Below, piece by piece: positions 21,301 to 54,642 of a stretch of 64,000 bases of DNA. This DNA is from Eledone cirrhosa. Lineage: Eukaryota. The stretch lies in the NCBI GenBank assembly GCA_964016885.1, contig OZ024751.1, forward strand, positions 6,324,001 through 6,388,000, written 5' to 3'. A model generated the notes under the pieces. The model was not told the origin of the DNA and did not search any database. It saw only the letters and a list, made by a program, of their open reading frames with translations. How positions within the stretch are numbered: position 1 is the stretch's first letter; every line of letters begins with the position of its first letter. The position numbers were made by a program, and so were the translations under genes.

Positions 21301-21520
21301 GGAGCAACGTAAGGTTGCCTCTCATTTCTACAGCTGAGTGAACTGGAGCAACGTAAGGTTGACTCTCATTTCTACAGCTGAGGGAACTGGAGCAACGTAA
21401 GGTTGCCTCTCATTTCTACAGCTGAGTGAACTGGAGCAACGTGAAATAAAGTGTCTTGCTCAAAAACACAACGCAAGGCCTGGAACCGGAATCGAATTCA
21501 CAATCTCATAATTGTAAGCC
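18345..21520 (-). mobile_element. Second SINE family (CORE/Meta-like), internally expanded by the satellite
   Basis: Minus strand: tRNA-like head (attcgattcc), ttgagcaagacacttt core, tail matching 53213-53260. Confidence 0.65.
18505..21442. repeat. 44-bp tandem satellite, ~67 copies
   Basis: Unit catttctacagctgagtgaactggagcaacgtaaggttgcctct; first at 18507, last at 21411 (66 x 44 apart). Confidence 0.98.
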
Positions 21521-26782: not shown

Positions 26783-27064
26783 TATATATATATATATATA
26801 TAAATGAAGTAATTCCGTCGGAAATGTCCAGGAAAAAAGACTGCTCTATGTAGGTAACAGAGCTTAATGGTTATGTAATAAACAAAATAAGGCAATTATT
26901 TCACTTACCAGTGGTTTCTTAAAAGAAAAAATATTTTGCTTTCAATCATCAGAATGAAAAAATCCTGGTGTATTTATTGACGTTGGATTTTAAAAACAAA
27001 AATGCAATCTATATGAAAGTGAGGCTGGAAAAGGAAGAAGGAAAGGAAAAATAAAATAAAAACA

Positions 27065-27114
<50 letters not shown>

Positions 27115-27258
27115 CATACACACATACATACACACACCTATATATACACACACACACACATACATATGTGTATATATATACATACACATACATATACACA
27201 TACATACATACACACATAAATATCAACATATCCATACATACACATACATATATACAAC

Positions 27259-27338
<80 letters not shown>

Positions 27339-27760
27339 CACATACATATACATACACACATACATATACATACATACATACACACAATCATACGCATATA
27401 CACACGTACATACATACGCATACATACACACATATATACACGCATACATACGCATGCACAAAAATAGAAATATATATACACACCTCTACATACTCACACA
27501 CACAAATAAATATAAGAAAAATATATAATAATGAAAAAACATAAAAATAAATATAAAGACTATTATAATGTTGACAGCGATACAGGCAACAAATAAATGA
27601 ACAAACCCACGTGGTAAGCAATACACACAAATGCACGTACACATACATACGTAAAAATAAATACATACACACACTCTCACACATAAATATAAATATACAA
27701 ATACATAAACACATACATACGCATACACACATACATACACACACACATATATACATATAT

Positions 27761-27791
<31 letters not shown>

Positions 27792-27947
27792 GATAGATAT
27801 ATATATACACACATACATAACCATACAAATATACACATACATATACATACATATCACAAACACGTACATACAAATTCAAACACACTTATATATATGTGTG
27901 TAAAACTCCTTCTTAGATAATTCATATGAACCTTATTTAACTCTAAA

Positions 27948-28000
<53 letters not shown>

Positions 28001-28056
28001 ATCATACGCATATACACACGTACATACATACGCATACATACACACATATATACACG

Positions 28057-28128
<72 letters not shown>

Positions 28129-28260
28129 TACACATACATACATACTCACATACACATATATACCTACACACATATATACATACACATACGTATGCATACG
28201 TACATACACACACACACATACATATGCATATGTAACTCAATATATATTTATATATATATG
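26604..28260. repeat. Representative (TA)n/(CA)n/(TATG)n low-complexity tract; similar tracts occur throughout (e.g. 5952-6214, 14790-14980, 55300-57590)
   Basis: Direct inspection. Confidence 0.97.
26899..26959 (-). ncRNA. Type I hammerhead ribozyme, intact core
   Basis: Reverse complement reads tttcatt-CTGATGA-ttgaaa...ttttaa-GAAA-ccactgg-TA-agtgaaa. Confidence 0.8.
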
Positions 28261-28680
28261 AGAAAGAACATAATTAATATATATATATATATATAAAAAA
28301 TAAATATTGTTATACTTTGGGAGGGTCATGTTGCCAATAAATTTAGAAACGAAATAAAAAATAAATATTTTATATATAAAAAAATATTGTATATATAAAA
28401 ATAAAAAATTAAAATTAAAATTAAAATTAAAATTAAAAGTTGGGAATACGACAAATAATAAATGCAAAAATATATATTTAGAAAAGGGTATAAATGCTTA
28501 TAACAGATTTAGAGCTCTCAACAAATTCCTGGAGTAAAAGATCAATGAAAATAATCATTAAATCACTATATGTAATGATGCATATACATACACCCTTATA
28601 CATATATACATATATATACACATACACACACACATACAAAAAAAGACAACCACAGAAATACACACACATATACAATTACG

Positions 28681-28716
<36 letters not shown>

Positions 28717-28937
28717 GGAAAAAGTCTGACCCCCCGGATATATATATATATATATATATATCGACACATATATACACACATACATACATATAACTATATA
28801 CACACACGCGCACAAATACAACAGAAATATATAATATATACGATTATATATACATATACAATTACATACAGATAGATATAAACATACATACACACACATA
28901 TATACATACACATATCCATATACACACACATATACAT

Positions 28938-28970
<33 letters not shown>

Positions 28971-31272
28971 CATACTTATACATATGTACTCACATACATA
29001 CATATACGCAACAAAAAAATTATTATATAAAAATAAAAACATTTTTGGGTATGTGAAGCGTAAGGCAAAAAAAGAAAGGGGAAATAAATTTCCAAGGAAA
29101 AGGTTTAAATATAAGGGGAGATAAGGGAGAAAGAGAATACTAGAGTACAGAACGTGGATTCAGCAGGTAAAAAAACCGTAGTGGAAGTAAAGAGCAGGAA
29201 AGGAGTTCAAGGTGGTTGAGTTATCATAGGAATGTCAATCCAGTTACAGATCAGATGTGATTTCAGATGAGGACAACATCTGAAGGTCTCGGTCTTTGAG
29301 TTCAGGCAAGCAGAAGTGGCTTTCAAGTTTAGCAAATTCCTATATTTTTCTATGGTACACAAAGAAGAATTCTTTGTGCCCCTTTGGTACTCCCTCGAAT
29401 GGTCTAAAATAGACCAATCGATAGAGTACGGGATGTTTTTATCCTTGAATTCCCACACCTTACTTGCGAGGGCCGTTGTTGTTCGTTTATCGGAGTGCTT
29501 AAAAGAAGCGACATGTGCATAAAACCTGGTTTTAAACCTGTCCTGGGTCATGCCAACATATCGCTCACCCCTGGCTGGCTGGTTGTTAATTAAAGGTGTC
29601 ACTTTAACCTCATAAACAACATATTTGGTGTGACATTTACCCTGCAATTGGCATTCATCGGGCTTCCTGCAACTGCATCCTAGATTTGTTCTCGTATGAT
29701 TTGAATTAGTGATCTTGGACTTCATTGATGGGCAACAAGAGTAAGTGATCTTAACTACATTTCTATTAAATATCTTATAATATCTATGATTAGGAGGAAA
29801 ATGTTTATCTAAGAGTTCAAGGAATTTCCTTCCTACATTAGTTTTGACAGTTAGAGATAAGGGGGGTGTAAACCAAATAGTTTTCCTTTTCCTATTATTG
29901 TGGTTAGTTTTAGGGGGGGGGGGAATAGGTAAATAATAAATTTGTTCTGTAAAACTGCTGTTTTTAAGGGCTTTATTATAATAAGGGGCGGCTTTATTAA
30001 AAATATCTATAGACGAAGATAGGGTAGAAATCCTACGGCTAATGTTGGGAATAAGATTTTTTTAAACTATAGGGGGATGGCAAGCCTCTTTGTGTATATA
30101 CCTAAGATTTTCATTAGGTTTATGATAAGGTTTAAAAGAGGCGGCAAGTAGATCAAGATTAATGTCAAGAAAGTTAGCATTAGTAAGGTTCGTATCTATA
30201 GTAATTTTAAGGTTAAGATTAGCAAAAGTATTGATTAAATCTTCACGGAATTATCAAGGTTATGGCCGTTGGTGGTATGAGAAACTGCCAATCCGTCATC
30301 ATGGTATAAACCGATATTATGGGAAGGAAATTTATCTTTGAGGGTGTGGAGAAGGAATAAACCTACTAAGTCACACACATCCGCACTGTCATATGAACCC
30401 ATTGCAACATAAAAAGAGTTTTCAGGGTTTGACTTTTTAACCCAAATATTTTCATTAGTAAAGAGTAAAGTTTTTCTAGCATGAAAGATAATGTCTTCTT
30501 CTAATTTAGAAATATTAATCAAGGGTCTTGCAAACTCTAAGGCATTAGTTAATAAGGAAACAGTAATAGAGGGGTAAAAATCAACAATATCAAATAGGGT
30601 AAATCTTCACTTATTTTTACCTTGTATATTATTTAACCAAGAAATAACAGAGGAAGTATTTAGCCACTGTGATAGGTCGGTCTTAGTTCTAATTTGGAGA
30701 ATTATTTTTCTTAAGATTGTTTTACTTGCAAGGCCAACTTCGGATTTAGCCGGGTTAATCAGTCAACAACTAGGTCGATTAGTAAAGTCTAATTTATGGT
30801 CTTTAAGGGTAATATATCTTTATTCTTAGCTAGGCTTTCAATCCGGTTGTCTATTTTTAAAGAACTAGCCAGTTCTTTTGCTTCTTTATTAATATTATTG
30901 TAGGTATATTCTTTATAATAGTATTGTATTGATCTTTTACTCCAGGAACTTGTTGAGTGCTCTAAATCTGCTATAAACATTTATACCGTTTTCTAAATAT
31001 ATATTTTTTAATTTATTATTTGTCGTGTTCCCAACTTTTTATTTTCATTTTTATTTTTATTTTTATTTTTATTTTTATTTTTATATATACAATATTTATA
31101 TTTTAGATATATATATATTAATTATGTTCTTTCTCATATATATATATATATATATTGAGTTACATATGTATATGTGTGTGTGTGCGTATGTACGTATGCA
31201 TACGTATGTGTATGTATATATGTGTGTAGGTATATATGTGTATGTGAGTATGTATGTATGTGTATACATGTG

Positions 31273-31377
<105 letters not shown>

Positions 31378-31591
31378 TATATATTTCTATCTGTGGAAGG
31401 TCATACTATTATAATATTGCCAGAAATAATAATAAAACACACTCACATGTTTTAGAGTTAAATAAGGTTCATATGAATTATCTAAGAATGACTTTTACAC
31501 ACATATATATGAGTGTATTTGAATTTGTATGTACGTGTTTGTGATATGTATGTATATGTATGTGTATATTTGTATGGTTATGTATGTATGT

Positions 31592-31627
<36 letters not shown>

Positions 31628-31851
31628 ATATACGTGTATATGTGTGTGTGTGTATGTATTTGTGTATGTATATATATATCTATATAGAGAGAGAGTTATA
31701 TATGTGTATGGATATAATTGTGTGTGTGTGTGTGTGTTTGCATGTGTGTTTTTATTTTATTTTTTCTTTCCTTCTTCTTATTCCAGCCTAACTTTCATAT
31801 AGATTGCATTTTTGTTTTTAACATACAACGTCAATAAATACGCCAGGATTT

Positions 31852-31912
31852 TTTCATTCTGATGATTGAAAGCAAAATTTGTTTGGTTTTAAGAAACCAC
31901 TGGTAAATGAAA
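31852..31912 (+). ncRNA. Type I hammerhead ribozyme, intact core
   Basis: tttcatt-CTGATGA-ttgaaa...ttttaa-GAAA-ccactgg-TA-aatgaaa; 7-bp stem I. Confidence 0.82.
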
Positions 31913-31950
31913 TAATTGTGTTCTGTTGTTTATTACATAACTATATATAT

Positions 31951-32271: not shown

Positions 32272-32528
32272 GCATATATATATATTTATATATATATATA
32301 TATAAATATATATATATATTTTGTTTCTGAAATTGTTTAGCAAGATTCTTTCTCTGAAAACGTGTGTTGAAACCGATATTATTATACTTTGGGAGGGTCA
32401 TGTTGCCAATAAGAAACACACGCACCAATTGTTTCACTTCAATTTATCATAATAAATTGATAAATTTAGGAATTTATAAATTTCCGGTTGGCTGATTGGT
32501 TCCATAATCGGATGGTTGTTTATATATT

Positions 32529-32571
32529 GTCATAGTTCTTTCGTCACACATTTTGTGACCCCTTCAGTGAC
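32529..32571 (-). ncRNA. Minimal type I hammerhead (A9>G variant)
   Basis: Reverse complement reads gtca-CTGAAGG-ggtcaca..tgtgac-GAAA-gaac-TA-tgac. Confidence 0.65.
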
Positions 32572-34622
32572 TGGGGATTCTTTTCTTTGTTTTTGTGCCT
32601 CTCCTTTGTTCTGTCCTACGCCATTTTGTTTCTGTGTGTGTGTTGTGTGCTCAGTCTGCGCATGCGCCACATCCGGGTGTCTGTGTGTGTTTATATTTGT
32701 TTATTTATTTGTTTATTTACATGTTACCGGTTGGTTCTTTGTTCTATGTGTGTGTGTGTTTTCATTTTGTCCTTAATTGTAAGTTGTGATGTTGCTGTTC
32801 CACTCATATTTTCTATTTAATTTTGGTTGTAATTCTTTTATATTTATTGCCTCTGTGATTTGTCTAAACATTGCGTCTTTTCTGTGTGTAGATTCTATTT
32901 TTATTTCTATGTTCTCTAATTTAGCCTTATGTTCTATTTTAGCATGTTGGTAGAGTACAGATGATTCTTTACTATCTTGAAGGTCTCGCCAGTGTTCATT
33001 TATCCGTTCCCCTACACTACGAGCTGTCTCACCTATGTAAACTATATTTTTGTCTCTACATTGTCCTTCAGTACATCTTATGCTATACACTACATTTCTA
33101 GTTTTACAGTTAATATGGGGGCTTAGTTTACAGGTTATACATTTCTTATCTATACAGGGAAAGGGTATGTCTTGCTAATGAGTGTTTTTACGGAGGTACC
33201 TGGTCTTTCTACTATCTTAATATTGAGTTTATGTTTATCTAGGGCCCTTCTAAATTTGTAAGCTAATTCACCTCTAGGGGTTGTATCGATGAACATTACA
33301 CTCTGGTATTTATTGCTATCATACCATGAGTTTATTCTATTAGCCTTATTCCTAGTTCTTTCTATTCTATTCCAAAATTTGCTCCTATACAAGGGGCAGG
33401 TCCCATTTGTGTCATTATTTACCATTTGGTTCTGGCTCCTCTATACACTCTGATTTTATCTCTCTGATTGTAACCAGAGAACTGCATACGGTGGATGAAG
33501 TGTTGTATGTGTCTCTCTAGTTCTTCGCGGTTGCACATGCGGGACACGTTTCTCATCACCCGTACCAAATCCGCAATCAGTATGTTGATTTTGGTAAGGT
33601 CCGAAACAGCTGAGTTTCGGTGGATCAGATATTTGGAAGTCATGGGTTTGGCATAATGGCAATGGAGGATTTGTTTTTTTGTTTTTAATGGTATCCTACC
33701 AGAGCTCTGTGTCTAGTACAGGTAATCGATGGTTGGGGTGTTTACTTGGGTAGTCTATAGTAACTCTAATACTCTGGTGGATGGAGTTCGCTACTTGCTG
33801 GATCCTTTCCATTGTGTTTTTCTCTAATTCCTGACTGTTCTCTAGTGAGGGTGTTTTAACTACGATGTTTATATCATCAACGTAGCGGTAGTACATTATC
33901 AGGATTAAGGGGTCTTCTAATTGTTCTTTAAGTTTAAGTTTAAATTTACTGTCCCACCATACCATGAATAAGTTAGCCATGTCGCCTGCAATGCTAACAC
34001 CAATGGCTGCTCCTTCCTCTTGGGCATATGTTTTTCATTTTAAATTTGAATTATGTTCCTTAAGGGTTAATTTTATGCTGGCTCCCACCGCATGTGCAAT
34101 CATTTTCTTCAGTTCATCGTGGTTTTCAGGTGTCCGTATGGCTCCATCTAGTGTACATAGGAGAGACAGCTGGTAGTGTAGGGGAACGGATAAATGAACA
34201 CTGGCGAGACCTTCAAGATAGTAAAGAATCATCTGTACTCTACCAACATGCTAAAATAGAACATAAGGGTAAATTAGAGAACATAGAAATAAAAATAGAA
34301 TCTACACACAGAAAAGACGCAATGTTTAGACAAATCACAGAGGCAATAAACATAAAAGAATTACAACCAAAATTAAATAGAAAATATGAGTCGAACAGCA
34401 ACATCACAACTTACAATTAAGGACAAAATGAAAACACACACGCACATAGAACAAACAACCAACCTGTAACATGTAAATAAACAAATAAATAAACGAATAA
34501 TTAACACACACAGACGCCCGGATGTGGCGCATACGCACACTGAGCACACAACACACACACAGAAACAAAATGGCGTAGGACAGAACAAAGGAGAGGCACA
34601 AAAACAGAGAAAAGAATCCCCA

Positions 34623-34665
34623 GTCACTGAAGAGATCACAGAATGTGTGACGAAAGAATTTTGAC
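34623..34665 (+). ncRNA. Minimal type I hammerhead
   Basis: gtca-CTGAAGA-gatcaca..tgtgac-GAAA-gaat-TT-tgac. Confidence 0.7.
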
Positions 34666-37600
34666 AATATATAAACAACCATCTGATTATGGAACCAACC
34701 AGCCAACCGGAAATTTATAAATTCCTAAATTTATAAATTTATTATAATAAATTTAAGTGAAGCAACTGGTGCGTGTGTTTCTTTTTGGCAACATGACCCT
34801 CCCAAAGTATAACAATATCGGTTTCAACACACGTTTTCAGATAAAGAATCTTGCTAAACAAATTCAGAAACGAAATAGCGTAAGCCTTAGCCAGGCTAAC
34901 AAGATACTGAAAACCGCCATGTTCTGTTGTCTACGAAAAACAATAACATCTCGATACACTTCATAAAAGAATGTGCCTTGTCCCGAGTTTACACCAACAC
35001 CATCAACACCGAAGTAAGAAGATTACAACTCACCAAAAAGGAAGCAGATAGGCTAAAACGAACACTAATTCTGAACATAAAAAAGAAGATCTATAGAGAA
35101 TTAAGTCATCAAGAAAAATATAAGCGTAACCTAATACAAGAAATAACTAAGATTACCACCCAAAGAGAAAAACTAATATTTATAAGCCTTATACGTCCTG
35201 AAGAACAGTACATTGCTCAAGAATGTGATAAGCACTTTAACAAGAAACTAAAGTGGCTTAAGCAGATAAAACTAAATCAGGATACTGTAGAGAATACCAA
35301 TAGATATCCCGACAAAATTGACGGTATAAATATGGCCGACATCTCATTAACAGATGAGTTCAACAACAACAACACAAATATATACGGCAACACTGCAGTA
35401 GATCCTGATGAATTATCTGTATTACATCTACCACCGAAATATGCGACATTCAAGAAGGTAAATATGATTAGTTGTTTGTCAGAAATAGAAAAATCATTTA
35501 CAAAATTACGTTGGAGCCTCAAAAACAAAAACAAAAGTAACAACATACGCACACACACACACATATACAAGACACATCCCAACAACATGAGACACACAGA
35601 CACAAACAACAATAACAACAACACACACATCAACAATAATAACATACTCAGAAACGACAACAACAGACACGCAGAAACAAACAACGATAACAACACACAC
35701 AACAACAATAACACACACGGAGACAACAACAACAACACACATCAACAACAGCACACATCAACAACAACAACACACACACATTCAATGCCTCTCACCACCA
35801 CCACAATCTTAACAAACACACAGATACAGAAAACAAGTAATGAGCGTAGCACAGAAATAAGGGAAGGTAATAGGATTAAAAGGACAAAGAAAATAACCAA
35901 GACGAACACACAGACACACAAAATAGAGTAGATAATAACAATGAGCCAGTGGAAAGAGACAGGAGTAATAATGAGAGACATAGAAACAACCATGAGGCTG
36001 TTGGTGGAAATAGAAATAGAAACAACACAACTAAAAATAACAATAGCACTAGTACACATAAAGCAGCAACCTGGAACTCTACTTTTTATAATCCCTCCGA
36101 TAAGTCGTTCGACCTGCGACGAGTCCACGCCACGACTTTACCATTTAACAAACGCACGCAATTGCCGTCGCGGGTCGATGAACAAACAGAAGCACAATTT
36201 AGTATATCTAGATCCGAACTTAGAAATATTATAGAACAGTATAGCAAGAAGCATAATATAATGGAGGCCCAGCAACTGAGAGAAAGGTCTGCAAATGGCT
36301 TGCGTAAGCTCATGCAGCGCTGGCGTAATGGAGAGATAGCATGCTTTCCAACAGACAAGTCGGGCAGAATGTCGGTTGACAGCCTGCCAAACTACATCCA
36401 GGCAATGCATCCCCACATCACCAACACAAGAGAAGTAACACCACAGGAGCATGAGGATAGTGAAAAAGCCCTCAATGCCCATATGGTGATGTGGACGAAT
36501 ATAATGCAGCCCAACTAGAGGACTGCCAACAACTTCCAGGCCTGGAACAATGACGTGCCGGCGTTGTATGGGCTTCGAAAAGACCATAACCCGGGCAGTG
36601 ACCCTTTCACGGGACCACCAACACGGCCAGTCTGTGGGGCTAACATTGCTAGTAACTACAGACTGTCCTACTTCCTCTCCCTGATCATACGCCCCATCAT
36701 TGAAATGTCCCCAGATGTATGTGACAGCACGGAGGACCTCCTCAGCAGAATCGGCGAGAATAACCGATCTAGGGACCTAACAAACTGCATAATAGGTTGT
36801 ATGGATGTTGTGTCCCTGTATCCATCTATTGATGTGGATTTTGCTGTGGATAAATGCGTAGAAATGATCAGTGAGAGCAATGTTGAGTTCCGTGGGATTG
36901 ACACCGGTGAGCTGGGACTCCTACTTAAACTTACCTATAGTAATAATTACCTAGACACATATGACCTTAGCAACCTGTGCCCTACAAGACCAGCAAGAGG
37001 CAGACCACCTACCATTACCTCAATGGCCAAGAAAACCCACACAAATAGATGGAACGGGTGGACCAGAGCCATACGGACACCCGAAAACCACGATGAACTG
37101 AAGCAAATGATTGCACATGCGGTGGGAGCCAGCATAAAATTAACCCTTAAGGAACATATGTTCGAATTTAATGGAAAAAACATATGCCCAAGAGGAAGGA
37201 GCAGCCATTGGTGTTAGCATTTCAGGCGACATAGCTAACTTATTCATGGTATGGTGGGACAGTAGACTTAAATATAAACTTAAAGAACAATTAGAAGACC
37301 CCTTAACCCTGATAATGTACTCCCGCTACGTTGATGATATAAACATCGTAGTTAAAACATCCCCACTAGAGAAAACAGTCAGGAATTAGAGAAAAACACA
37401 ATGGAAAGCATCCCGCAAATAGCTAACTCCATCCACCAGAGTATTAGAGTTACTATAGACTACCCAAGGAAACACCCCAACCATCGATTACCTGTGCTAG
37501 ACACAGAGCTCAGGTGAGATACCATTAATAACAAAAAACAAATCCTGCATTCCCATTATGCCTAACCCATGACTTCCAAATATCTGATCCACCGAAACTC

Positions 37601-38659
37601 AGCTGTTTCGGACCATACCAAAATCAACATACTGATTGCGGATTTGGTACGGGTGATGAGAAACGTGTCCCGCATGTGCAACCGCGAAGAACTAGAGAGA
37701 CACATACAACACTTCATCCACTGTATGCAGTTCTCTGGTTACAATCAGAGAGATAAAATCAGAGTGTATTGAGGAGCCAGAACCAAATGGGAAAAAATGG
37801 TAAATAATGACACAAATGGGACCTGCCCCTTGTATAGGAGCAAATTTTGGAATAGAATAGAAAGAACTAGGAATAAGGCTAATAAAATAAACTCATGGTA
37901 TGATAGCAATAAATACCAGAGTGTAATGTTCATCGATACAACCCCTAGAGGTGAATTAGCTTAAACATTTAGAAGGGCCTTAGACAAACATAAACTCAAT
38001 ATTAAGATAGTATAAAGACCAGGTACCTCCGTAAAAACACTTATTAGCAAGACATACCCTTTTCAAAGAACACCTGTACAGATAAGAAATGGATAACCTG
38101 TAAATTAAGCCCCCATATTAACTGTAAAACTAGAAATGTAGTATATAGCATAAGATGTACTGAAGGACAATGTAGAGACAAAAATATAGTGTAGATAGGT
38201 GAGACAGCTTGTAGTGTAGGGGAACGGATAAATGAACACTGGCGAGACCTTCAAGATAGTAAAGAATCATCTGTACTCTACCAACATGCTAAAATAGAAC
38301 ATAAGGGTAAATTAGAGAACATAGAAATAAAAATAGAATCTACACACAGAAAAGACGCAATGTTTAAACAAATCACAGAGGCAATAAACATAAAAGAATT
38401 ACAACCAAAATTAAATAGAAAATATGAGTGGAACAGCAACATCACAACTTACAATTAAGGACAAAATGAAAACACACACGCACATAGAAAAAACAACCAA
38501 CATGTAACATGTAAATAAACAAATAAATAAACGAATATAAACACACACAGACACCCGGATGTGGCGCATGCGCAGACTGAGCACACAACACACACACAGA
38601 AACAAAATGGCGTAGGACAGAACAAAGGAGTGGCACAAAAACAAAGAAAAGGATCCCTA

Positions 38660-38702
38660 GTCACTGAGGAGGTCACATAATGTGTGACGAAAGAACTTTG
38701 AC
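38660..38702 (+). ncRNA. Minimal type I hammerhead
   Basis: gtca-CTGAGGA-ggtcacataatgtgtgac-GAAA-gaac-TT-tgac. Confidence 0.75.
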
Positions 38703-38871
38703 AATATATAAACAACCATCTGATTATGGAACCAACCAGCCAACCGGAAATTTATAAATTCCTAAATTTATAAATTTATTATAATAAATTGAAGTGAAAG
38801 CAACTGGTGCGTGTGTTTCTTATTGGCAACATGACCCTCCCAAATTATAACAATATATATATATATATATA

Positions 38872-39325: not shown

Positions 39326-39483
39326 TATATATATATATATTTATATATATATGCATATATATATATATTAATAAGAGGAATTCCAACACTGTCTGATTTA
39401 CTCGTTTTATTTACAATCCTTTAAAATTTATAATGGTATTATAATAAAATAGTAAGATAGAATATTAAATTCTAAGTGTTAAT

Positions 39484-39522
39484 TGAACAAGTACTTTCAT
39501 GCTTTCGCAATCTTCAGGTTCA
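39484..39522 (-). ncRNA. Minimal type I hammerhead, intact core
   Basis: Reverse complement reads tgaac-CTGAAGA-ttgcgaaagcat-GAAA-gtac-TT-gttca. Confidence 0.82.
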
Positions 39523-39842
39523 TAATATGTGGTGACAGTCAAGTTTGCAATTTTCAACTGTAATAAGATGGGTAAATTTCCTACCTTTTATACATATTAT
39601 ACAGGGAAAAGTGGCTCCAGAATGCTAAGCCCTGCAAACTGTATTTCGACCAATCAGTGTGTAGTTTCACTGAATTACTAAAGCTGATTGGTTTAAGCGT
39701 CACGGCTGGTTGTGCATGACTAACGACCAATAATTAATCATATCCAAAGCATCAATTGTTTTGCTATTTTTAGAAATTATGAAAATAGCATTTTCTATTA
39801 ATCATCACCATCAACATCACTTTTATTATTATTATTATTATT

Positions 39843-39881
<39 letters not shown>

Positions 39882-42800
39882 AGTGGTCGTAGTCATAGTG
39901 GTAGTAGAAGTAATACCCCTAAGCATTATTATTGTTCATTTAGCTTGGGTTTGAATTTATCAATAAAATTCTTTTCTTTGATTTTTCTCTTGATTTCATT
40001 TGGGCTGTGTAATTTGTAGAATGGGAATATTATAAATATTCCCTGACCACATGTTGCTAGATGGTTACTTAGGGGTATCTGACGGACATTTGGGTCTCTG
40101 ATTTGTTGACGGTGTACCCGTGCACGTTCCGATAGTGCATTTCCAGTTTGACCGACATATAGTTCTTCACAATTCGGGCATTTAATGAAGTAAATTAGAT
40201 TTCTGCTCTTGCAGTTCATATTTGCATTTGGGAATATTTTTCCAGTTTTTGTTTTCATATATTGACCGGCGTGTATGGATTGACATGTGCAGCAAGGACT
40301 ATCATTGCATTTAGATACAGTGAATGATTGGTCTTTGTTGTTAAGGTCAAACTTTGCTTTTGTTAGTAATTGCTTCAAATTTTTTGGCTGTCTTTTAATA
40401 AGAGTCAAAGATCGATCAGTGATTAAGCCTTTTAATTCATTACTTTGAGCAATGATCGGTAGGTTTGCTTTGGCAGTGTTGAAGATATTCTGGTGACATG
40501 GGTTGTGTGTCATTATAAATGGTATGACCAGTTCTTGGTTTCTTCTTCCTTGGGTTGTCCTAAGTTGTTGTATAGGTATTTTTATTTGTATAGGTATTTC
40601 TATAAGTAGAGATGTGTATTTTTGTTTGAGCAAACATTCTCTTAGTTTTGTTAGGCGTTTGTACCTGGTATTCGTATCTTCTACAATGGTACAAATTCTT
40701 CTGGCTAGGCAGTATGGGATGTTGCGTTTTGTATGAGGTGGATGGCACGACTTAAAATTCAGATATTGATGGGTGTCTGTGTGTTTATAATATATATCCG
40801 TGGTAATGATGGTGTCGTTTTTGATTATCATTATATCTAGGAATGGTAATTTGGTCCTACTCATCTCTTTTGTGAATTAGAGAGATGGGTGTAGGTTATT
40901 CAGGAGGATATTGAACTCATCCAGAGTATCGAGAGATTCTGTCCAGATGATGAAACAGTCGTCAAGTTATCTCTTCCAAGATTTTTCAATGTACTTTCTA
41001 AAGTCAGTACTATATTTTTCCTCTATTTCTTGGTAGAATTGTATCCCATTACAGAGTTCACGTAAACGGGAACAAACTTCGTTCCCATCGCTGTGCCTCT
41101 AATGTGGATGTAATTCTTTCCATTGAAGAAGAAACTGTTGTTTTCCGGAATAAGTTTAACTGCGTCTAATACAAATGGCGCTGTGAATCTGATGGGAATC
41201 ACTTCTCTATGTTTTTCCACCCAGTATTTAATCGCCTTTATTCCTAAATCATGTGTAATGTTGGTGTAAAGGCTTACCACATCAAAACTGAGTAGAAGTG
41301 AATTCGTTTCCGTGGTTTTGGGAAGATGGGACAGGAAGTCGATATCATCCCGGATGAAACTGGGTATGTGAATACATAGTGGTTTCAAAATAATGTCAAC
41401 AAAATTGCTTAGACGGTGGGTGGGGCATGTTGGACCAGCTATAATAGGTCTAAGTTTTAAGTCTTTTGGGTGTAATAATTTAATGTACTCACTGTTTTGT
41501 TCTCTTACTGCCAGTTGTATTTCTTTTGACTTATGAACTTTCGGTAGGCCATACAGGTTGCTGGGTTTCGGCTCAAAATTGGTGATGTATTCTCTTTCCT
41601 TATCAGTAAGTGAGTTGTGGTATTTTGAAGCCAGGTTGTTGATCTTCTTCGTGATGTTGTAGTCTATATTTGACGGTATTTCATGATAGAATGTTGTGTC
41701 TTTCAGTTGTTCCTCAACCAAATCCTTGTAGTATTCCGTATCCATTATAACAACTGCACCCCCTTTATCTGCTTGTTTAATTATTATTGTTTTATCATTT
41801 TTTATACGTTTAAATGCAGACATTTCTGATTTGTTAATGTTTGGCCTAACATTAGTATTATGTCTAAGAGGAAATTTAGACAGGATGTCAATGTATTGGT
41901 CGAGATAGATATTTCTTCCTTTTGGCGGAGTCAAATTTGATTTATTCTTTACTAGTGATTCATCACTCTCATTACTTTTATCAGTGAAGAAATCTACAAG
42001 ACGTAATTTTCGACAGAATTCTTGGGTATCCTCCTTCAGTTCTTGGTGGTTGTCTGTTGGAGTCGGTGTGAATTTCAGTCCTTTTGACAGAATTTGCATT
42101 TCATCATTGTCAAGATCTCTTTTAGATAAATTAATTATTTTAGGATCTACGTGTACAGTTGTTTTGGATATGTTTCCTCCTGGAGTTTTTCTTTTTCCGG
42201 TTTTTGTTGTCCTGACGTTAAAAAATAGATTTTTCTCTGTTCAGGATTTATATTCCTGTTGGTGTTCGCTTGATGAACTTTTGGTCGTGATATTATATTT
42301 GGTTTCGTTATGTATTTTGTCCTATTTTTGGTATTCTGTATATTATTTTTCTTCCTGTTAGCATTATTTTTAACAATCTGGGGAAATGACCTAGGTTTGC
42401 TTTCAGGTTTAGATCGTTTTTTCGTCCAGTTTCTTGTGGGCAATCTCTGTTGAGATCTTGAGAGTGATCTGGTTATTCTACGTTTTGTTTCCACATTCAT
42501 TGTTGGTAGTTTCTGTTGAGATCTTGAGAATGATCTCCTGGTTTTACTACTTCTCATGGTCTGGTCAAAGGAATATCTATCGTGTTTGTGCTTTTTGTTC
42601 ATGTTGTGTGCGATAGGGTGTTTTTGTAGAAAAAGCGAAGAGTTATTACCATAGTTCTTCTTTGATTCAAGGTAAGGTGAGTGTTTGTGTTGGCACGTGT
42701 TCTGGCGTATGTTGTATTGATGAGATTGTCCACTTTTAATGCTTTTTCTCAGGGTTCCAGAGTCTTTACCGTAATTTGCAGCATATTCGTCGAGAAATAA

Positions 42801-44255
42801 TTGTTTCTGCTGCCATACCTTTCTTGATTTGTTTTCTTCTTTTGAGATATCTCTGATCCATAGTTCGCGTAGTTTTTCAACTATAATACCAGTCGTTAGC
42901 TTTGAAATTTCAACTTCAATTTGGTCATCAATAGCCTCATATTTGGCTTCGATGCGGGATTGTTTACATTCAGAAATGGAGATGTCGGTCCTGAATTTTG
43001 TCAATGTAAGTTCCCATCGGAGTTTTCTTTCTTCTTCTGGTTCTCCTGCAATTTCTGTAATTAGGTATTTACGAGGGAGTCTGGGTGCCGTTAGAAAGAG
43101 CCATTTCGAATGTGTTTCGACATATTTTTCGCATTTGTATGCTTTCCATTTTGTATTCTTATGTTAAGGAATTTTTTATATGTCTTCGACATTTCTTTTC
43201 TTATTCGATGTGTTTTGTTTTCCAAATTTCTTTCGTTTATTTCTGACATCCAAGGGGAAGAAGAAACCAAGAACTGGTCATACCATTTATAATGACACAC
43301 AACCCATGTCACCAGAATATCTTCAACACTGCCAAAGCAAACCTACCGATCATTGCTCAAAGTAATGAATTAAAAGGCTTAATCACAGATCGATCTTTGA
43401 CTCTTAGTAAAAGACAGCCAAAAAATTTGAAGCAATTACTAACAAAGGTAAAGTTTCACCTTAACAACAAAGACCAATCATTCACTGTATCTAAATGCAA
43501 TGATAGTCGATGCGGCACATGTCAATCCATACACGCCGGTCAATATATGAAAACAAAAACTGGAAAAATATTCCCAAATGCAAATATGAACTGCAAGAGC
43601 AGAAATCTAATTTACTGCATTAAATGCCCGAATTGTGAAGAACTATATGTCGGTCAAACTGGAAATGCACTATCGGAACGTGCACGGGTACACCGTCAAC
43701 AAATCAGAGACCCAAATGTCCGTCAGATACCCCTAAGTAACCATCTAGCAACATGTGGTCAGGGAATATTTATAATATTCCCATTCTACAAATTACACAG
43801 CCCAAGTGAAATCAAGAGAAAAATCAAAGAAAAGAATTTTATTGATAAATTCAAACCCAAGCTAAATGAACAATAATAATGCTTAGGGGTATTACTTCTA
43901 CTACCACTATGACTACGACCACTAACAACAACAACAACAACAATAATAATAATAATAATAAAAGTGATGTTGATGGTGATGATTAATAGAAAATGCTATT
44001 TTCATCATTTCTAAAAATAGCAAAACTATTGATTCTTTGGATATGATTAATTATTGGTCGTTAGACATGCTCAACCAGTCGTGACGTGTAATTCAGTGTG
44101 TAATTCACTGAAACTACACACTGATTGGTCGAAATACAGTTTACAGGGCTTAGCATTCTGGAGCCACTTTTCCCTGTATAAAATGTATAAAAGGTAGGAA
44201 ATTTACCCATCTTATTACAGTTGAAAATTGCAAACTTGACTGTCACCACATATTA

Positions 44256-44294
44256 TGAACCTGATGATTGCGAAAGCATGAAAGTACTTGTTCA
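44256..44294 (+). ncRNA. Minimal type I hammerhead, intact core
   Basis: tgaac-CTGATGA-ttgcgaaagcat-GAAA-gtac-TT-gttca; palindromic stem III. Confidence 0.85.
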
Positions 44295-44454
44295 ATTAAC
44301 ACTTAGAATTTAATATTCTATCATACTATTTCATTATAATACCATTATAAATTTTAAAGGATTGTAAATAAAACGAGTAAATCAGACAAAGTTGGAATTC
44401 CTCTTAATAATATAATCTTCTATACACAATCATACACACCCGTGTATGATTGTG

Positions 44455-48785
<4,331 letters not shown>

Positions 48786-49160
48786 TTATTTCGCTGGAAT
48801 ACTGCCGAGCATGTACGGCTTAATTCGGGCTGCTTGTTTACAAACAAACCAAACATTATAATAAATGTTCGGTAAACCCATACGTACATATATATATATG
48901 TGTGCATGTATGTATATATATATAAATAGTACTGTACGTCTGTATACATATATGTATGTACGTATACATACTTACATTTAAGTACCAGCCGTACTAAGAG
49001 TGAGAAATGAAATTTCCTTTCATTTTTTTCCATATATATATATATATATATATATATGGGGGGAGCGGGAGGGGTGTGTGTGTGCGTGCGCGCGTGTGTG
49101 TATATTTATATATAAGTATGTATATATATAATTATATATGTATATATGTATATATGTAAG

Positions 49161-49238
<78 letters not shown>

Positions 49239-49241
<3 letters not shown>

Positions 49242-49280
49242 TCCTGATGAATTCTAACAAGAATGAAACGCGTAGATTAC
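49239..49280 (+). ncRNA. Type I hammerhead ribozyme, copy 1 (5' stem I extension truncated)
   Basis: tagtc-CTGATGA-attct(aaca)agaat-GAAA-cgcg-TA-gatta; predicted cut after 49274. Confidence 0.85.
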
Positions 49281-49523
49281 TTCCCTTGCTTTTATCGAGA
49301 ATCTAATTGTAATACGTGACGTATTCTATTCTATAGCGATTAGGTCTTCAAAATGTTTATTATAAACATACAGAATATTTTCGAATATTCTATGTCTATA
49401 TTCACATATATATCGCTATTTCAGAGCATTTATTCCAATTTCTAATTTCTGCCGGACCGGCAACCGCTCTTTCAAACCAGTTCCTGTACACAGCTAAGTA
49501 TTCTATAAGTCTCTAGCTGTGTC

Positions 49524-49612
49524 ATTCTCGATAAAAGCACTGGATATGTAGTCCTGATGAATTCTAACAAGAATGAAACGCGTAGATTACTTCCCTTGCT
49601 TTTATCGAGAAT
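49524..49612 (+). ncRNA. Type I hammerhead ribozyme, copy 2, with extended stem I
   Basis: 16-bp distal helix attctcgataaaagca/tgcttttatcgagaat, internal loop ctggatat/ttccct, proximal stem gtagtc/gattac; predicted cut after 49584. Confidence 0.92.
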
Positions 49613-49833
49613 CTAATTGTAATACGTGACGTATTCTATTCTATAGCGATTAGGTCTTCAAAATGTTTATTATAAACATACAGAATATTTTCGAATATTC
49701 TATGTCTATATTCACATATATATCGCTATTTCAGAGCATTTATTCCAATTTCTAATTTCTGCCGGACCGGCAACCGCTCTTTCAAACCAGTTCCTGTACA
49801 CAGCTAAGTATTCTATAAGTCTCTAGCTGTGTC

Positions 49834-49922
49834 ATTCTCGATAAAAGCACTGGATATGTAGTCCTGATGAATTCTAACAAGAATGAAACGCGTAGATTAC
49901 TTCCCTTGCTTTTATCGAGAAT
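49834..49922 (+). ncRNA. Type I hammerhead ribozyme, copy 3, with extended stem I
   Basis: Identical to copy 2, offset +310; predicted cut after 49894. Confidence 0.92.
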
Positions 49923-50074
49923 CTAATTGTAATACGTGACGTATTCTATTCTATAGCGATTAGGTCTTCAAAATGTTTATTATAAACATACAGAATATTT
50001 TCGAATATTCTATGTCTATATTCACATATATATCGCTATTTCAGAGCATTTATTCCAATATATATATATATATA

Positions 50075-52375
50075 TAACGAAGGAAATGCGGTAAGGTACC
50101 AGGTGGACCATAACGCATCAGATCACTCAATACTTAGAGTAGTAGAGTGGGTAATAGGTAAAGGTATGAACCCGATGGCAGAGCTCAAGCCGTTTCGACG
50201 GCTATTTCTGGACTAAATTAGAATTTTTAGCCTGGTAAATAAATAGCCGAACTTGTCAAGGGGTACTTCCTTATATGGCAATATTGTAGTTGACAAGAGA
50301 ATTTGTCAAAATTTGTTGTAAACACAAATAAGTCTGTCATGGCAATTGGTGTGAGGTAGGGTTGGCTGAACTAGCCTGTAGAGCAATGAGGGAGCTAGTC
50401 AAGCGTTGAAAGTGAAATCTATACAACAGATTCTAAGGATAGTGTATGAAAAGTCGAAAAATTGTTCTGGAGAAAATGGAGGAGGGAAGGAATAGAATAG
50501 GTAAGTCAAATGAGAGTAGGAGACAATAAAAAATAATAGAAAGAAATATAAAGAAAATATATAAAATTAGATAGTGAGAAATGAATAAAAAAAAACAAAA
50601 ACAGTAGAGTCTATAGACAGCTGTTATAATAAGTAGGTGTTGCTTGTACGGCCAAAGCTAGAGAAAAGGTTAATAAGTTGAGAATGGAAAATACTAAATA
50701 AGAAATTGTAGAAGTGGGTAGTGGAGAAATATAATGGAAACTTTTCAGGAGTCTAACACAGCTGATATAAATAGTTAGTAAAGGGTATCCCACCAATAAT
50801 ATCTTACAATTACAGGTTAATAAGTTGAGAATAGAAAATACTAAATAAGAAATATTGAAATTGTAGAATTGGAGTAGTAACAAAGAAAAATGATACAAAA
50901 TTACAGGGGTCTAACACATCTGATATAAATAGTTAGTAAAGCGTTTTCGGCCAATTCTATCTTAAAATTACAGTGGTGGGGCACTGAGGCTACAGAGCCC
51001 CGACGGGCTGCATCGGGGTATGCGGAAGGGGAAAAACAGACGAGGAAGAAGATCGATAGTGGAAGGAAGTGATAGGATGAGACAGGGGGAAGAAGACAAC
51101 ATAGAGGAAAAGAAAAGAGGTACATCTACCTATGTAAGCTGGGGTTTCCCCTAACTTATTCGGCAAGTGTGTGTTTGTGGGGGGGGGGAGTATCAGCCCT
51201 TGACTACCCACGCAGGACGTTATGTGGTTTGAGGGCGAGGTTAGTCCTACGCAATCTGTGTTTGCATGTGGTTACCAGTTCGTCTTTCTTGTTTAGGAGT
51301 TGGTCCTTCGAAAACAGCATTTGTAATGTTTCCTCCGAGCATAAGTTACACGGACGGCGTCCTCCCGTGTAAGAGTTAGCTCTGGACAGTAAGCTCCAAG
51401 TGAGATTGTATGTTATATTATCATCTTGACGGTCCCAGATGTGGCCCGAAAGTGTATTGGCATGTCGCCGGACCGGGTTTCGGAAAGTATGTCGGTTGGT
51501 AGAGCCGGGTCTTAAAGTAACAAGCGGTTAATCCTTAATAAGCTTTGTTGGAGGTGTCCGTCCTCACGTTGCACTGGTAGATCACATTACGTTCTCGGCA
51601 TCTGTTGTTGATCTATCAGGGTAGTTAACCCTCCTGGTCGGCTCTCCACTGATGTCTAGGTTATTTCTTCCATAGCAGTTGAGTTTTTTTATTGTTTGAG
51701 GAGACGACGTTTTGTGCGAAGTTAGGTGTGGTGTTGTAGGAGAGTTTGATGGTGTTTTTGTTGATTATGTTGTGGTAGCGGTGTTGTAGTGGGAGGTGTT
51801 TTCCGAGGAGCCTAAAGAAGATTTTCCCGATAGGTGTTGCCACCTCGGCATTGTGGGTAGGATTGAACCACGTTATGTTGCATGAGCGGTGGTGTCGCCT
51901 GCTGGTTCCGCTAGGGGAATCTGGATAAAATGATATTTCCTCCCGGAAGCCACTCCGCTTGAAAGCCTGGTTATAATGAGTCGCATGTTCGTCGAATATC
52001 TGCTCATTAACGGACAAACGAGATATGCGGAGGGAGATGTTTTTAACCAGGTTTTTGGTGATGTTTCTAGGATGGTTAGAGCGGCGGTGGATGTAGTGCA
52101 GGTTGTCGTTTGGTTTCTTGTATGGGTAGTACAGATCACTTTCGAGGTTACAGGTAACGTCCAGGAAATTGACTCGGGTTAGGGACGTGTGTAGGGTGAT
52201 TTTAAATCCCCAGTCCTGGAAGAAGTTGATAAGTTATTTACGGACCCGGTCTGTACTATAAGGAAGTATTACTAACAAGTTCGGCTATTTATTTACCAGG
52301 CTAAAAATTCTAATTTAGTCCAGAAATAGCCGTCGAAACGGCTTGTGCTCTGCCGTCGGGGTTATACTTTTTCAT
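50075..52375 (-). mobile_element. 5'-truncated Naiad-like Penelope element with inverted terminal copy
   Basis: YNQAFKRSGF, NITWFNP, HRYHNIINKNTIKLSY; upstream NFLDVT and PYKKPN; downstream CNLCSEE, NKKDELVTTCKH; 52275-52372 is the reverse complement of 50158-50257. Confidence 0.85.
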
Positions 52376-54173: not shown

Positions 54174-54257
<84 letters not shown>

Positions 54258-54642
54258 TAAGATATTCCGGGTTGAATCGGAGATAACCACAGTAAGTAAG
54301 ACACTCAATACATAGCAGAGTATAAACGTTTTAATATAGATGAGATTCTACGGGACTAGAACTGTTTAATTCTTTAGAAATCATCAGGAATATATATATA
54401 TATGAGATGAGAACGCAACTATCTGATGAGAACGCAACTATCGTCCCAAGATGATATTTGCTTTTTAAATGCGCATAATAAAATATATGGAACATTTTAA
54501 ACCATCATTTAATTTCTTCTTATGTATATATATATATATATATAAATGAAAATATAGAAAATATTGTAGCGAAAAGCCAATATGTATATATATATATGTA
54601 TGTATATATGTATGTATGAATATATGTATATATGTATATATG

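What the first reader, a model, noticed from the sequence alone, without database searches (positions are those of the whole stretch)
49524..49612. Retrozyme hammerhead has extended stem I with internal loop and a palindromic stem III
Seen: a perfect 16-bp distal helix (49524-49539 : 49597-49612) separated from the 6-bp proximal stem by an 8x6 internal loop (CUGGAUAU/UUCCCU). Stem III is only A-C-[GC]-G-U, a palindrome. Known: loop II-stem I bulge contacts accelerate natural HHRs, and short palindromic stem III motifs cleave as dimers. Inferred: adjacent tandem copies pair into a double hammerhead, so cleavage would be favoured in multimers and the circular monomer would be stabilised. This is more elaborate than the minimal pLTR HHRs nearby.
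Basis: partly seen in the sequence, partly recalled or inferred. Interest (0 to 1): 0.75.

Follow-up and report, generated by a model that had tools for sequence, protein, structure and literature searches.

The report
Newt-type hammerhead retrozyme with edited helix
This is a known kind of self-cutting RNA motif inside a 310-base jumping repeat with about 18,500 genomic copies; it likely cuts only when two neighbouring copies pair, as in newts, and its long helix carries recurrent A-to-G changes that likely record editing of the RNA that was copied back into the genome.

Summary
The structure is real, but two loops are misdrawn. A 70%-identical sister family shows that the '8x6 loop' is a 2x2 loop, a 3-bp helix and the standard UAY/U bulge, and that loop II has six bases ending in the conserved A. 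All 10 two-sided changes keep Watson-Crick pairs, 4 of them in the distal helix. The double hammerhead is the predicted best fold of a dimer. It must swap stem I and the distal helix between copies, so that helix does not favour dimers; it clamps the monomer's ends. The ribozyme lies in a family of about 18,500 units. Of 86 complete insertions, 80 are back-to-back arrays with two fixed ends in (TA)n, the Penelope footprint. Array-fixed A>G changes recur in the distal helix, likely ADAR scars from a circular template. This scan noted the two-armed footprint and editing scars before, on other DNA of this genome. Cleavage, circles and expression are untested. Verdict: new member of a known kind.

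The parts
49239..50059 (+). Retrozyme insertion: 2.65 identical 310-bp units, single-armed, 5'-truncated at unit position 275 and ending at the family's fixed 'tail' end (unit 165; unit position 1 = 49585)
49524..49539 (+). Distal helix, 5' arm (pairs with 49597-49612); A49533 and A49534 are recurrent array-fixed A>G sites in other copies
49540..49547 (+). CU (2x2 loop) + GGA (pairs with UCC 49592-94) + UAU bulge; U49547 would be the extrahelical pyrimidine of loop 1
   Evidence: motif from PMC2632901 passages
49548..49553 (+). Stem I, 5' strand GUAGUC (pairs with 49585-90); A49550 is a recurrent A>G site
49554..49560 (+). Catalytic core CUGAUGA (position 7 varies in the family; G8 variants never fixed in an array)
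49561..49574 (+). Stem II (A.U or U.U at the base plus 3 bp) with hexaloop UAACAA 49565-70; A49570 is the predicted reverse-Hoogsteen partner of U49591
49575..49584 (+). GAAA, palindrome ACGCGU (49578-83) and H17 = A49584; predicted cleavage between 49584 and 49585 (GUA)
49585..49612 (+). Stem I 3' strand (49585-90), U1.7 (49591), UCC, CU, distal helix 3' arm (49597-612); A49604 is the most recurrent A>G site (7 origins)
49585..49894 (+). One predicted monomer/circle (cleavage site to cleavage site); a second is 49275-49584
49834..49922 (+). Second complete hammerhead domain, the partner in the predicted double hammerhead
49239..49279 (+). First hammerhead core, with a 5-bp stem I and no distal 5' arm (truncated)
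50024..50059 (+). 'Tail' between the family's two fixed ends (unit about 130-139 and 165), the inferred reverse-transcription start sites; holds a 17-nt stretch shared with family B
49101..49238 (.). (TA)n target microsatellite, left flank
50060..50076 (.). (TA)n target microsatellite, right flank

Best explanation
The stretch is the hammerhead domain of a young 310-bp non-LTR retrozyme with the canonical animal type I layout, and it likely cleaves efficiently only as a double hammerhead of neighbouring units, releasing monomers whose ends the extended stem I would clamp for ligation into circles that a Penelope-type enzyme likely copies round and round into (TA)n sites. Steps: (1) Shown: core, helices, palindrome, tandem units, about 18,500 copies. 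(2) Shown by covariation: distal helix, GGA/UCC helix, stem I, stem II; loop 1 is UAY/U and loop 2 a hexaloop ending in A. (3) Inferred from homology: U1.7-A(L2.6) docking speeds cleavage. (4) Predicted: a read-through multimer first folds local hairpins, the ACGCGU loops pair, and strand exchange of stem I plus the distal helix gives the nested double hammerhead. (5) Predicted: the excised monomer keeps its 5' and 3' ends paired by 6+3+16 bp, is ligated by a host RtcB-type ligase (as shown in vitro for axolotl and mussel), and resists re-cutting because a lone stem III is one base pair. (6) Shown footprint, inferred enzyme: insertions have two divergent arms that start at two fixed internal sites 26-35 nt apart in (TA)n. 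(7) Inferred: the helix exists in the template RNA and is edited A-to-I, and single edits are copied into every unit of both arms.
For: Structure and fold. Family size 18,488 (reversed control 0). Family B covariation: 10 of 10 two-sided changes stay Watson-Crick; on the central 12 distal pairs 91% of B cells pair, against 46-67% for slides of -3 to +2. U1.7 in 11 of 12 and the 3' A of loop II in 11 of 12 B copies. Dimer MFE is the double hammerhead; axolotl and newt precedent. Insertions: 80 of 86 complete ones two-armed, 79 of those 80 with ends at unit 139 and 163-170, 71 of 86 with (TA)n on both sides; 18 of the 21 picked by the ribozyme core alone are two-armed; 1,006 exact tail-end/(AT)n junctions genome-wide. 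These match the inverted copy, tail and (TA)n bias described for PLEs. Arrays are clonal: 0.28 differences within and 3.3 between arrays, and both arms share a haplotype in 50 of 50. Array-fixed A>G 32 against T>C 7 events, reversed among singletons (9 against 19; Fisher p 5e-5); 21 of 32 fall in the distal helix or stem I; A20 has 7 origins, A259 4, A276 4.
Against: No cleavage, circle or transcript has been observed for this family. Stem II lacks the usual G10.1-C11.1 pair, which may make it slow; the mussel and axolotl ribozymes with weak features still cleave, but 8 of 9 Xenopus dimers gave no product in vitro. The local 31.8-kcal hairpin could trap the RNA and block strand exchange. Single-site genome tests cannot separate the palindrome from a neutral site: palindrome G 32 variant units and no tandem-fixed array, G8 26 and none, U1.7 7 and none, but the spacer control has 21 with only one run of three. 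A distal-helix-breaking G>A is fixed, uncompensated, in two neighbouring insertions, so a perfect helix is not required. Family B keeps the helix but has a 3-bp stem III, so the dimer requirement is not conserved. The covariation is one lineage contrast. No autonomous partner was identified.
Confidence: 0.72

Rival explanations
1. The ribozyme cleaves well enough as a monomer, because the long stem I and loop-loop docking (or a bound protein) make up for the 1-bp stem III; the palindrome is only the shortest way to close stem III.
For: Most invertebrate retrozyme hammerheads cleave as monomers (PMC7761336 passage). The anole PLE ribozyme is protein-assisted. Family B has a monomer-capable stem III (+1.4 against +5.0 kcal/mol). 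The local hairpin forms first during transcription. No compensated alternative palindrome was found in family A at the position tested.
Against: Axolotl Amex1 has the same stem III and intact loop contacts, yet cleaves 6% as a monomer. The double hammerhead is 7.7 kcal/mol more stable. Family B's stem III/loop 3 is also self-complementary (duplex -6.9, or -11.1 kcal/mol for a shorter variant).
Confidence: 0.15
2. Arrays are copied from linear multimer transcripts, or expand locally after a short insertion; the ribozyme is a dispensable passenger and no circle is needed.
For: Hammerhead cleavage is not needed for anole PLE reverse transcription in vitro. Local tandem amplification is the model in the 2026 preprint. 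A locally amplified satellite of this unit exists on C14 and carries a palindrome mutant. Some arrays show variants repeating every 3, 5 or 10 units.
Against: Private variants and recurrent A>G changes are fixed in every unit of both arms. Both arms are multi-unit and start at fixed sites. None of 24 distinct array-fixed changes among 76 arrays touches the 11 invariant core positions, whereas 3 singletons do (low power).
Confidence: 0.1
3. The A>G excess in the helix reflects selection (A>G opposite U keeps a G.U pair, U>C does not) plus recombination between haplotypes or a reverse-transcriptase bias, not editing.
For: Every distal-helix A>G keeps pairing. Origins were counted on a minimum spanning tree, which recombination inflates. 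A few A>G calls relative to the window may be ancestral G (positions 2, 68, 124, 250).
Against: Purifying selection cannot raise a site's rate. Common variants show little homoplasy (287A>T in 90 arrays, 2 changes; 295A>G in 32 arrays, 1 change), while 20A>G is in 10 arrays with 7 origins. The only two distal-helix As with a 5' U (20, 259) are the two hot spots, matching the ADAR neighbour preference (recalled). A118, outside the ribozyme, behaves alike.
Confidence: 0.25

Closest known systems
Axolotl HHR_Amex1 / newt satellite-2 hammerhead in non-LTR retrozymes (PMC7229834, parts 2-4 of 6 read)
   Same: Type I ribozyme in each unit of a roughly 300-bp tandem; single-pair stem III capped by a palindromic tetraloop; loop 1-loop 2 motif present; dimer-dependent cleavage expected.
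   Different: Here probably an invertebrate (earlier scan notes say octopus; not verified), where stable stem III is said to be the rule. It combines Amex1's weak stem III with Amex2's U.U at the base of stem II, cleaves at GUA and has a 16-bp distal helix. Activity and circles are not shown.
Schistosoma mansoni Sm-alpha hammerhead (PMC2632901 passages)
   Same: Internal loop in stem I with a 5' U on the 3' strand and a final pyrimidine on the 5' strand (UAU here, UAC in family B); six-base loop II ending in A (UAACAA, CAACCA against CAAAUA).
   Different: AU-rich stem II without G10.1-C11.1, a weaker stem III and a longer distal extension.
Penelope-like elements, incl. anole Poseidon (PMC8557442 passages; PMC11167929 parts 1-2 of 4)
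   Same: Inverted 5'-truncated arm, two fixed internal start sites that leave a tail, (TA)n targets, hammerhead upstream of the start sites.
   Different: No ORF; multi-unit arms up to 22 or more units; tail 26-35 nt (30-40 described); canonical rather than minimal ribozyme.
Dolichopoda pDo500 satellite hammerhead (PMC2837043 passages)
   Same: Satellite-borne hammerhead with an extended stem I that can be drawn as a single or a double hammerhead; compensatory changes in stems.
   Different: There stem III folds within one sequence; here it needs two copies.
Rfam Hammerhead_HH9 (RF02275)
   Same: Same topology; best Rfam match (E 0.0045).
   Different: 23 bits against a gathering score of 52; not a member.

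Membership tests
Canonical metazoan type I hammerhead | Conserved core CUGANGA / GAAA / UH around three stems, open at stem I | tested here: met
Canonical metazoan type I hammerhead | Helix I about 6 bp and helix II about 4 bp | tested here: met
   definition
Canonical metazoan type I hammerhead | Loop 1-loop 2 sequence motif (5' U of loop 1, extrahelical pyrimidine, 3' A of loop 2) | tested here: met
   U49591, U49547, A49570; kept in 11, 12 and 11 of 12 family-B copies; motif. The contact itself was not observed.
Canonical metazoan type I hammerhead | G10.1-C11.1 pair at the base of stem II (highly conserved, not universal) | tested here: not met
   A-U in the window, U.U in 52 of 76 arrays; Amex2 also has U.U
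Canonical metazoan type I hammerhead | Short (1-2 bp) stem III with a small palindromic loop | tested here: met
   ACGCGU; definition
Canonical metazoan type I hammerhead | Self-cleavage; dimer dependence | not testable with these tools
   only folding energies
Non-LTR retrozyme | Tandem units of 150-450 bp, each with a type I hammerhead, GC below 50%, non-coding | tested here: met
   310 bp, 34% GC, no ORF of 120 aa or more over the array
Non-LTR retrozyme | Dispersed high-copy family | tested here: met
   18,488 cores; 1,006 exact tail junctions
Non-LTR retrozyme | Expressed as linear and circular monomers | not testable with these tools
   no RNA holder listed; only indirect genomic signs
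Non-LTR retrozyme | Target-site duplication, when present | tested here: inconclusive
   (TA)n on both sides hides any duplication
Non-LTR retrozyme | Absence of PBS and PPT | not tested
   no search was run
PLE-mobilised non-autonomous element | Inverted 5'-truncated arm | tested here: met
   80 of 86 complete insertions; 18 of 21 picked by core only. The window's own copy is single-armed.
PLE-mobilised non-autonomous element | Two fixed internal start sites leaving a tail at one end | tested here: met
   79 of 80 two-armed insertions end at 139 and 163-170; equivalent ends in family B
PLE-mobilised non-autonomous element | Microsatellite target | tested here: met
   (TA)n on both flanks in 71, one flank in 13, neither in 2 of 86
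PLE-mobilised non-autonomous element | Homologous pLTR of an autonomous partner | tested here: inconclusive
   One PLE family shares 24 of 28 nt of core and stem II, but the alignment score (38) is within the shuffle range (max 45); three other window PLE ends gave nothing above shuffles; no partner motif in 1.41 Mb held
Rfam HH9 | Gathering score 52 bits | tested here: not met
   23 bits

The most novel reading that the evidence does not exclude
The extended stem I is not a catalytic accessory but the circle's clamp and its ADAR substrate. The change from the 3-bp stem III of sister family B (insertions never above 755 bp, 0 of 29 over 1 kb) to the dimer-only ACGCGU of family A (median 2.4 kb, 75 of 86 over 1 kb) locked the circle shut and let a Penelope enzyme roll round it from both ends of a (TA)n break, fixing single RNA edits across whole arrays. 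That would be a natural experiment linking ribozyme dimer dependence to retrozyme success.
Probability: 0.3. Interest if true: 0.7.

Novelty: new member of a known kind. Interest (0 to 1): 0.42.

Why it matters
The ribozyme architecture and the dimer idea are textbook. The value lies in the family. The papers read propose, but do not show, that Penelope enzymes copy retrozyme circles; one review says the repeats carry no motif pointing to a partner. Here the insertion ends, the clonal two-armed arrays and the recurrent edits in this helix give sequence evidence for that route. They also name exact sites to test (unit 130-139 and 165 for priming; 20, 259 and 276 for editing). The A/B pair, alike except for stem III, offers a ready comparison of monomer- against dimer-cleaving ribozymes.

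Tried and rejected
Rfam at gathering threshold: 0 hits in the window. DNA search of the own genome with the unit: empty, because the words are too common; patterns were used instead. RNA runs: no RNA holder listed, so expression is open; contigs of 4 of the 6 listed runs were laid and showed presence and variants only. Covariation inside family A alone: too young, only one-sided changes. MAFFT alignment of A plus B misregisters the 3' half because B has three more bases in stem III, so I anchored on the core using 12 of 24 B copies of modal length; the 12 with indels were dropped. Genome-wide single-site exclusion tests lack power, since the control had only one fixed run. An alternative register for the internal loop (G268-U12, G269-C11) was rejected: P 0.0, and mismatched in B. 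Partner search: the PLE pLTR at 54256-54392 shares only the ribozyme core and stem II, and the 17-nt tail motif was not found outside retrozymes in 300 held sequences. A hard stop of family-B arms at the second cleavage site was considered and not supported. My first reading of the distal A>G changes as pure selection for pairing was revised. Not seen: the supplement of PMC7229834 (unreadable), the preprint's supplements, and Lunse et al. 2017 (not held; title only); these may bear on what is already described about insertion ends.

Full report
Observation. The 89-mer folds at -31.8 kcal/mol, z -6.89, better than all 200 shuffles. Rfam gives nothing at gathering level and a weak HH9 match, 23 bits. 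The motif is one of three cores in a 310-bp tandem of 2.65 identical units, 49239-50059, set in (TA)n. Below, unit position 1 is 49585.

The family. The own genome (3.0 Gb) holds 18,488 exact matches to the stem II-stem III pattern (reversed control 0), of which the window's own variant accounts for 3,924. In 76 arrays with at least three whole units (626 units), units differ by 0.28 positions within and 3.3 between arrays. Position 7 of the core and the middle of loop II vary freely, and 52 of 76 arrays have U.U instead of A-U at the base of stem II. The family is too young for covariation. A motif from a laid contig led to an older sister family B (451 pattern hits), about 68-70% identical along the whole unit.

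Corrected structure. Anchored on the core, with 12 of 24 B copies free of indels, all 10 pairs changed on both sides remain Watson-Crick: 4 in the distal helix, 2 in GGA/UCC, 2 in stem I and 2 in stem II. B pairs in 91% of cells on the central 12 distal pairs, against 46-67% for slides of -3 to +2; RNAalifold finds the same long helix in B alone. This is one lineage contrast, not many independent events. The '8x6 loop' is therefore a 2x2 loop (paired in B), a 3-bp helix and a UAY/U bulge. Loop II is a hexaloop whose last A is kept in 11 of 12 copies, and U1.7 is kept in 11 of 12. These are the three elements of the loop-loop motif described for the Schistosoma ribozyme (PMC2632901, passages). 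The contact itself is inferred.

Dimer model. A lone stem III is one A-U pair with a CGCG loop (+5.0 kcal/mol); two palindromes form a 6-bp duplex (-7.5). The MFE of a two-copy transcript is the nested double hammerhead, -112.1 kcal/mol, against -104.4 for two local folds with stem III free. In that fold stem I and the distal helix are swapped between copies. The distal helix forms twice in either fold, so it does not favour the dimer; the local hairpin forms first and must be exchanged, which could slow cleavage. What the helix does do is pair the two ends of the excised monomer, in the linear and the circular fold alike. A review says invertebrate ribozymes mostly have a stable helix III (PMC7761336, passages), so the newt-like form is somewhat unusual if this is an invertebrate.

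Tests that did not decide. Genome-wide variants at single sites: palindrome G306, 32 units (19 in one local satellite on C14), none tandem-fixed and none forming a new palindrome; catalytic G8, 26 units, none fixed; U1.7, 7 units, none fixed; distal G256, 23 units, with one locus of two insertions fixed and uncompensated; spacer control G70, 21 units with one run of three. The control is too close to zero for these to show selection. The G256 locus shows that a perfect helix is dispensable. Family B has ACAGACUGU, a 3-bp stem that is also nearly self-complementary.

How the element moves. Of 90 insertions in widely fetched loci, 86 were complete. Of these, 80 are two divergent arms joined at their truncated 5' ends, and 79 of the 80 end at unit 139 on one side and 163-170 on the other; 71 of 86 have (TA)n on both flanks. 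Most were picked by the 165 end, but 18 of the 21 picked by the core alone are also two-armed. Because unit 131-139 resembles (TA)n, the short end lies at 130-139 and the tail is 26-35 nt. An inverted truncated copy, a 30-40-bp tail and (TA)n bias are described for Penelope-like elements (PMC8557442, passages), and the tail is the gap between two internal reverse-transcription starts (PMC11167929, parts 1-2 of 4). Family B has the equivalent ends. The window holds PLE copies of the same build, one with GIY-YIG hits. Both arms share one haplotype in 50 of 50 two-armed arrays, private variants included. The window's copy is one of the rarer single-armed type. No autonomous partner was identified.

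Editing in the helix. Earlier notes of this scan on other retrozyme families suggested RNA-editing scars, which I then tested here. Across 118 arrays (801 units, 50 haplotypes), array-fixed changes counted on a minimum spanning tree are A>G 32 against T>C 7 on the ribozyme strand (p 5e-6), while singletons run 9 against 19 (Fisher p 5e-5). Twenty-one of the 32 lie at the 14 of 93 A sites in the distal helix and stem I. A20 arose 7 times, A259 and A276 4 times each, A118 3 times and A260 twice, whereas common variants show 1-2 changes. A20 and A259 are the only distal-helix As with a 5' U, the ADAR preference as I recall it. Selection for G.U pairs explains the direction but not the recurrence; recombination and a few mispolarised sites remain caveats. 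An edit present in all units of both arms points to one template molecule read many times, that is a circle.

A natural contrast. Family B insertions are short (median 421 bp, maximum 755, 0 of 29 above 1 kb, 15 of 29 two-armed); family A insertions have a median of 2,388 bp and 75 of 86 exceed 1 kb. Collapse of older arrays by recombination, or a different partner enzyme, explains it equally well.

Literature status. Neither the main text of PMC7229834 nor the 2026 preprint (10.64898/2026.07.22.740005, parts 1-3 of 5 read) describes inverted arms or tails for retrozymes (word finds). Searches for retrozyme with tail/inverted/Penelope, twin priming, head-to-head, ADAR and octopus listed no paper that, by title and abstract start, reports them; supplements were not seen. 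Within this scan, the two-armed footprint of this 310-nt family and editing scars were noted before on other DNA; I had found the footprint before looking.

Verdict. The finding as written is a canonical newt-type retrozyme hammerhead with two loops misdrawn and a published mechanism: a new member of a known kind. Cross-family covariation, the insertion footprint and the edited helix add solid but indirect support for the circle-and-Penelope life cycle. Interest 0.42.

Noticed in passing
window 54256-54392 (-); L260:4849-7202: Truncated pLTR of an abundant PLE family whose hammerhead shares 24 of 28 nt of core and stem II with the retrozyme and has a 3-bp stem III; in L260 the pLTR runs into a broken PLE ORF (weak GIY-YIG hit on a 93% identical ORF in L200). 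A possible relative or partner; similarity outside the ribozyme is not above shuffles.
   Followed up: partly
window 39364-44455: Two-armed PLE with GIY-YIG domains in both arms, minimal hammerheads (39517 -, 44261 +) with U.U at the base of stem II, and a hairpin tail of about 41 nt. Its ends lie about 127 and 168 nt after the cleavage site, close to the retrozyme's 130-139 and 165, without detectable sequence homology.
   Followed up: partly
window 32317-38853: PLE with inverted arm, two pLTRs with minimal hammerheads (34623, 38660), a frameshifted ORF and a tail of roughly 60 nt, in (TA)n; its 3' end recurs beside many other insertions.
   Followed up: partly
window 26800-31940: Two-armed PLE-like element with hammerheads at 26899-26959 (-) and 31852-31912 (+), 7-bp stem I, 3-bp stem III and a tail of roughly 65 nt.
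   Followed up: partly
L270-L299: Older sister retrozyme family B (about 315-bp unit, 451 pattern hits) with a monomer-capable stem III and only short insertions.
   Followed up: yes
G000:C14:25.02-25.32 Mb (L153-L171, L197): The retrozyme unit has been taken up into a locally amplified higher-order satellite that carries a palindrome mutant in 19 copies.
   Followed up: partly
L151/L152, L183/L184, L189/L190, L106, L173: Variants that repeat every 3, 5 or 10 units, or in a subset of units, inside one array: multimeric circles or later duplications.
   Followed up: no
unit 138-154 and 188-204 (window 49722-49738 and 49772-49788): Degenerate 17-nt direct repeat 50 nt apart, flanking the tail end and a hairpin; among the best-conserved stretches between families A and B and a candidate binding site for the PLE protein.
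   Followed up: partly
window 46583-47775 (+): PIF1-like helicase ORF fragment (E 1e-49), probably from a Helitron-type element.
   Followed up: no
window 18505-21442: 67 copies of a 44-bp unit, 97% alike: a young minisatellite.
   Followed up: no
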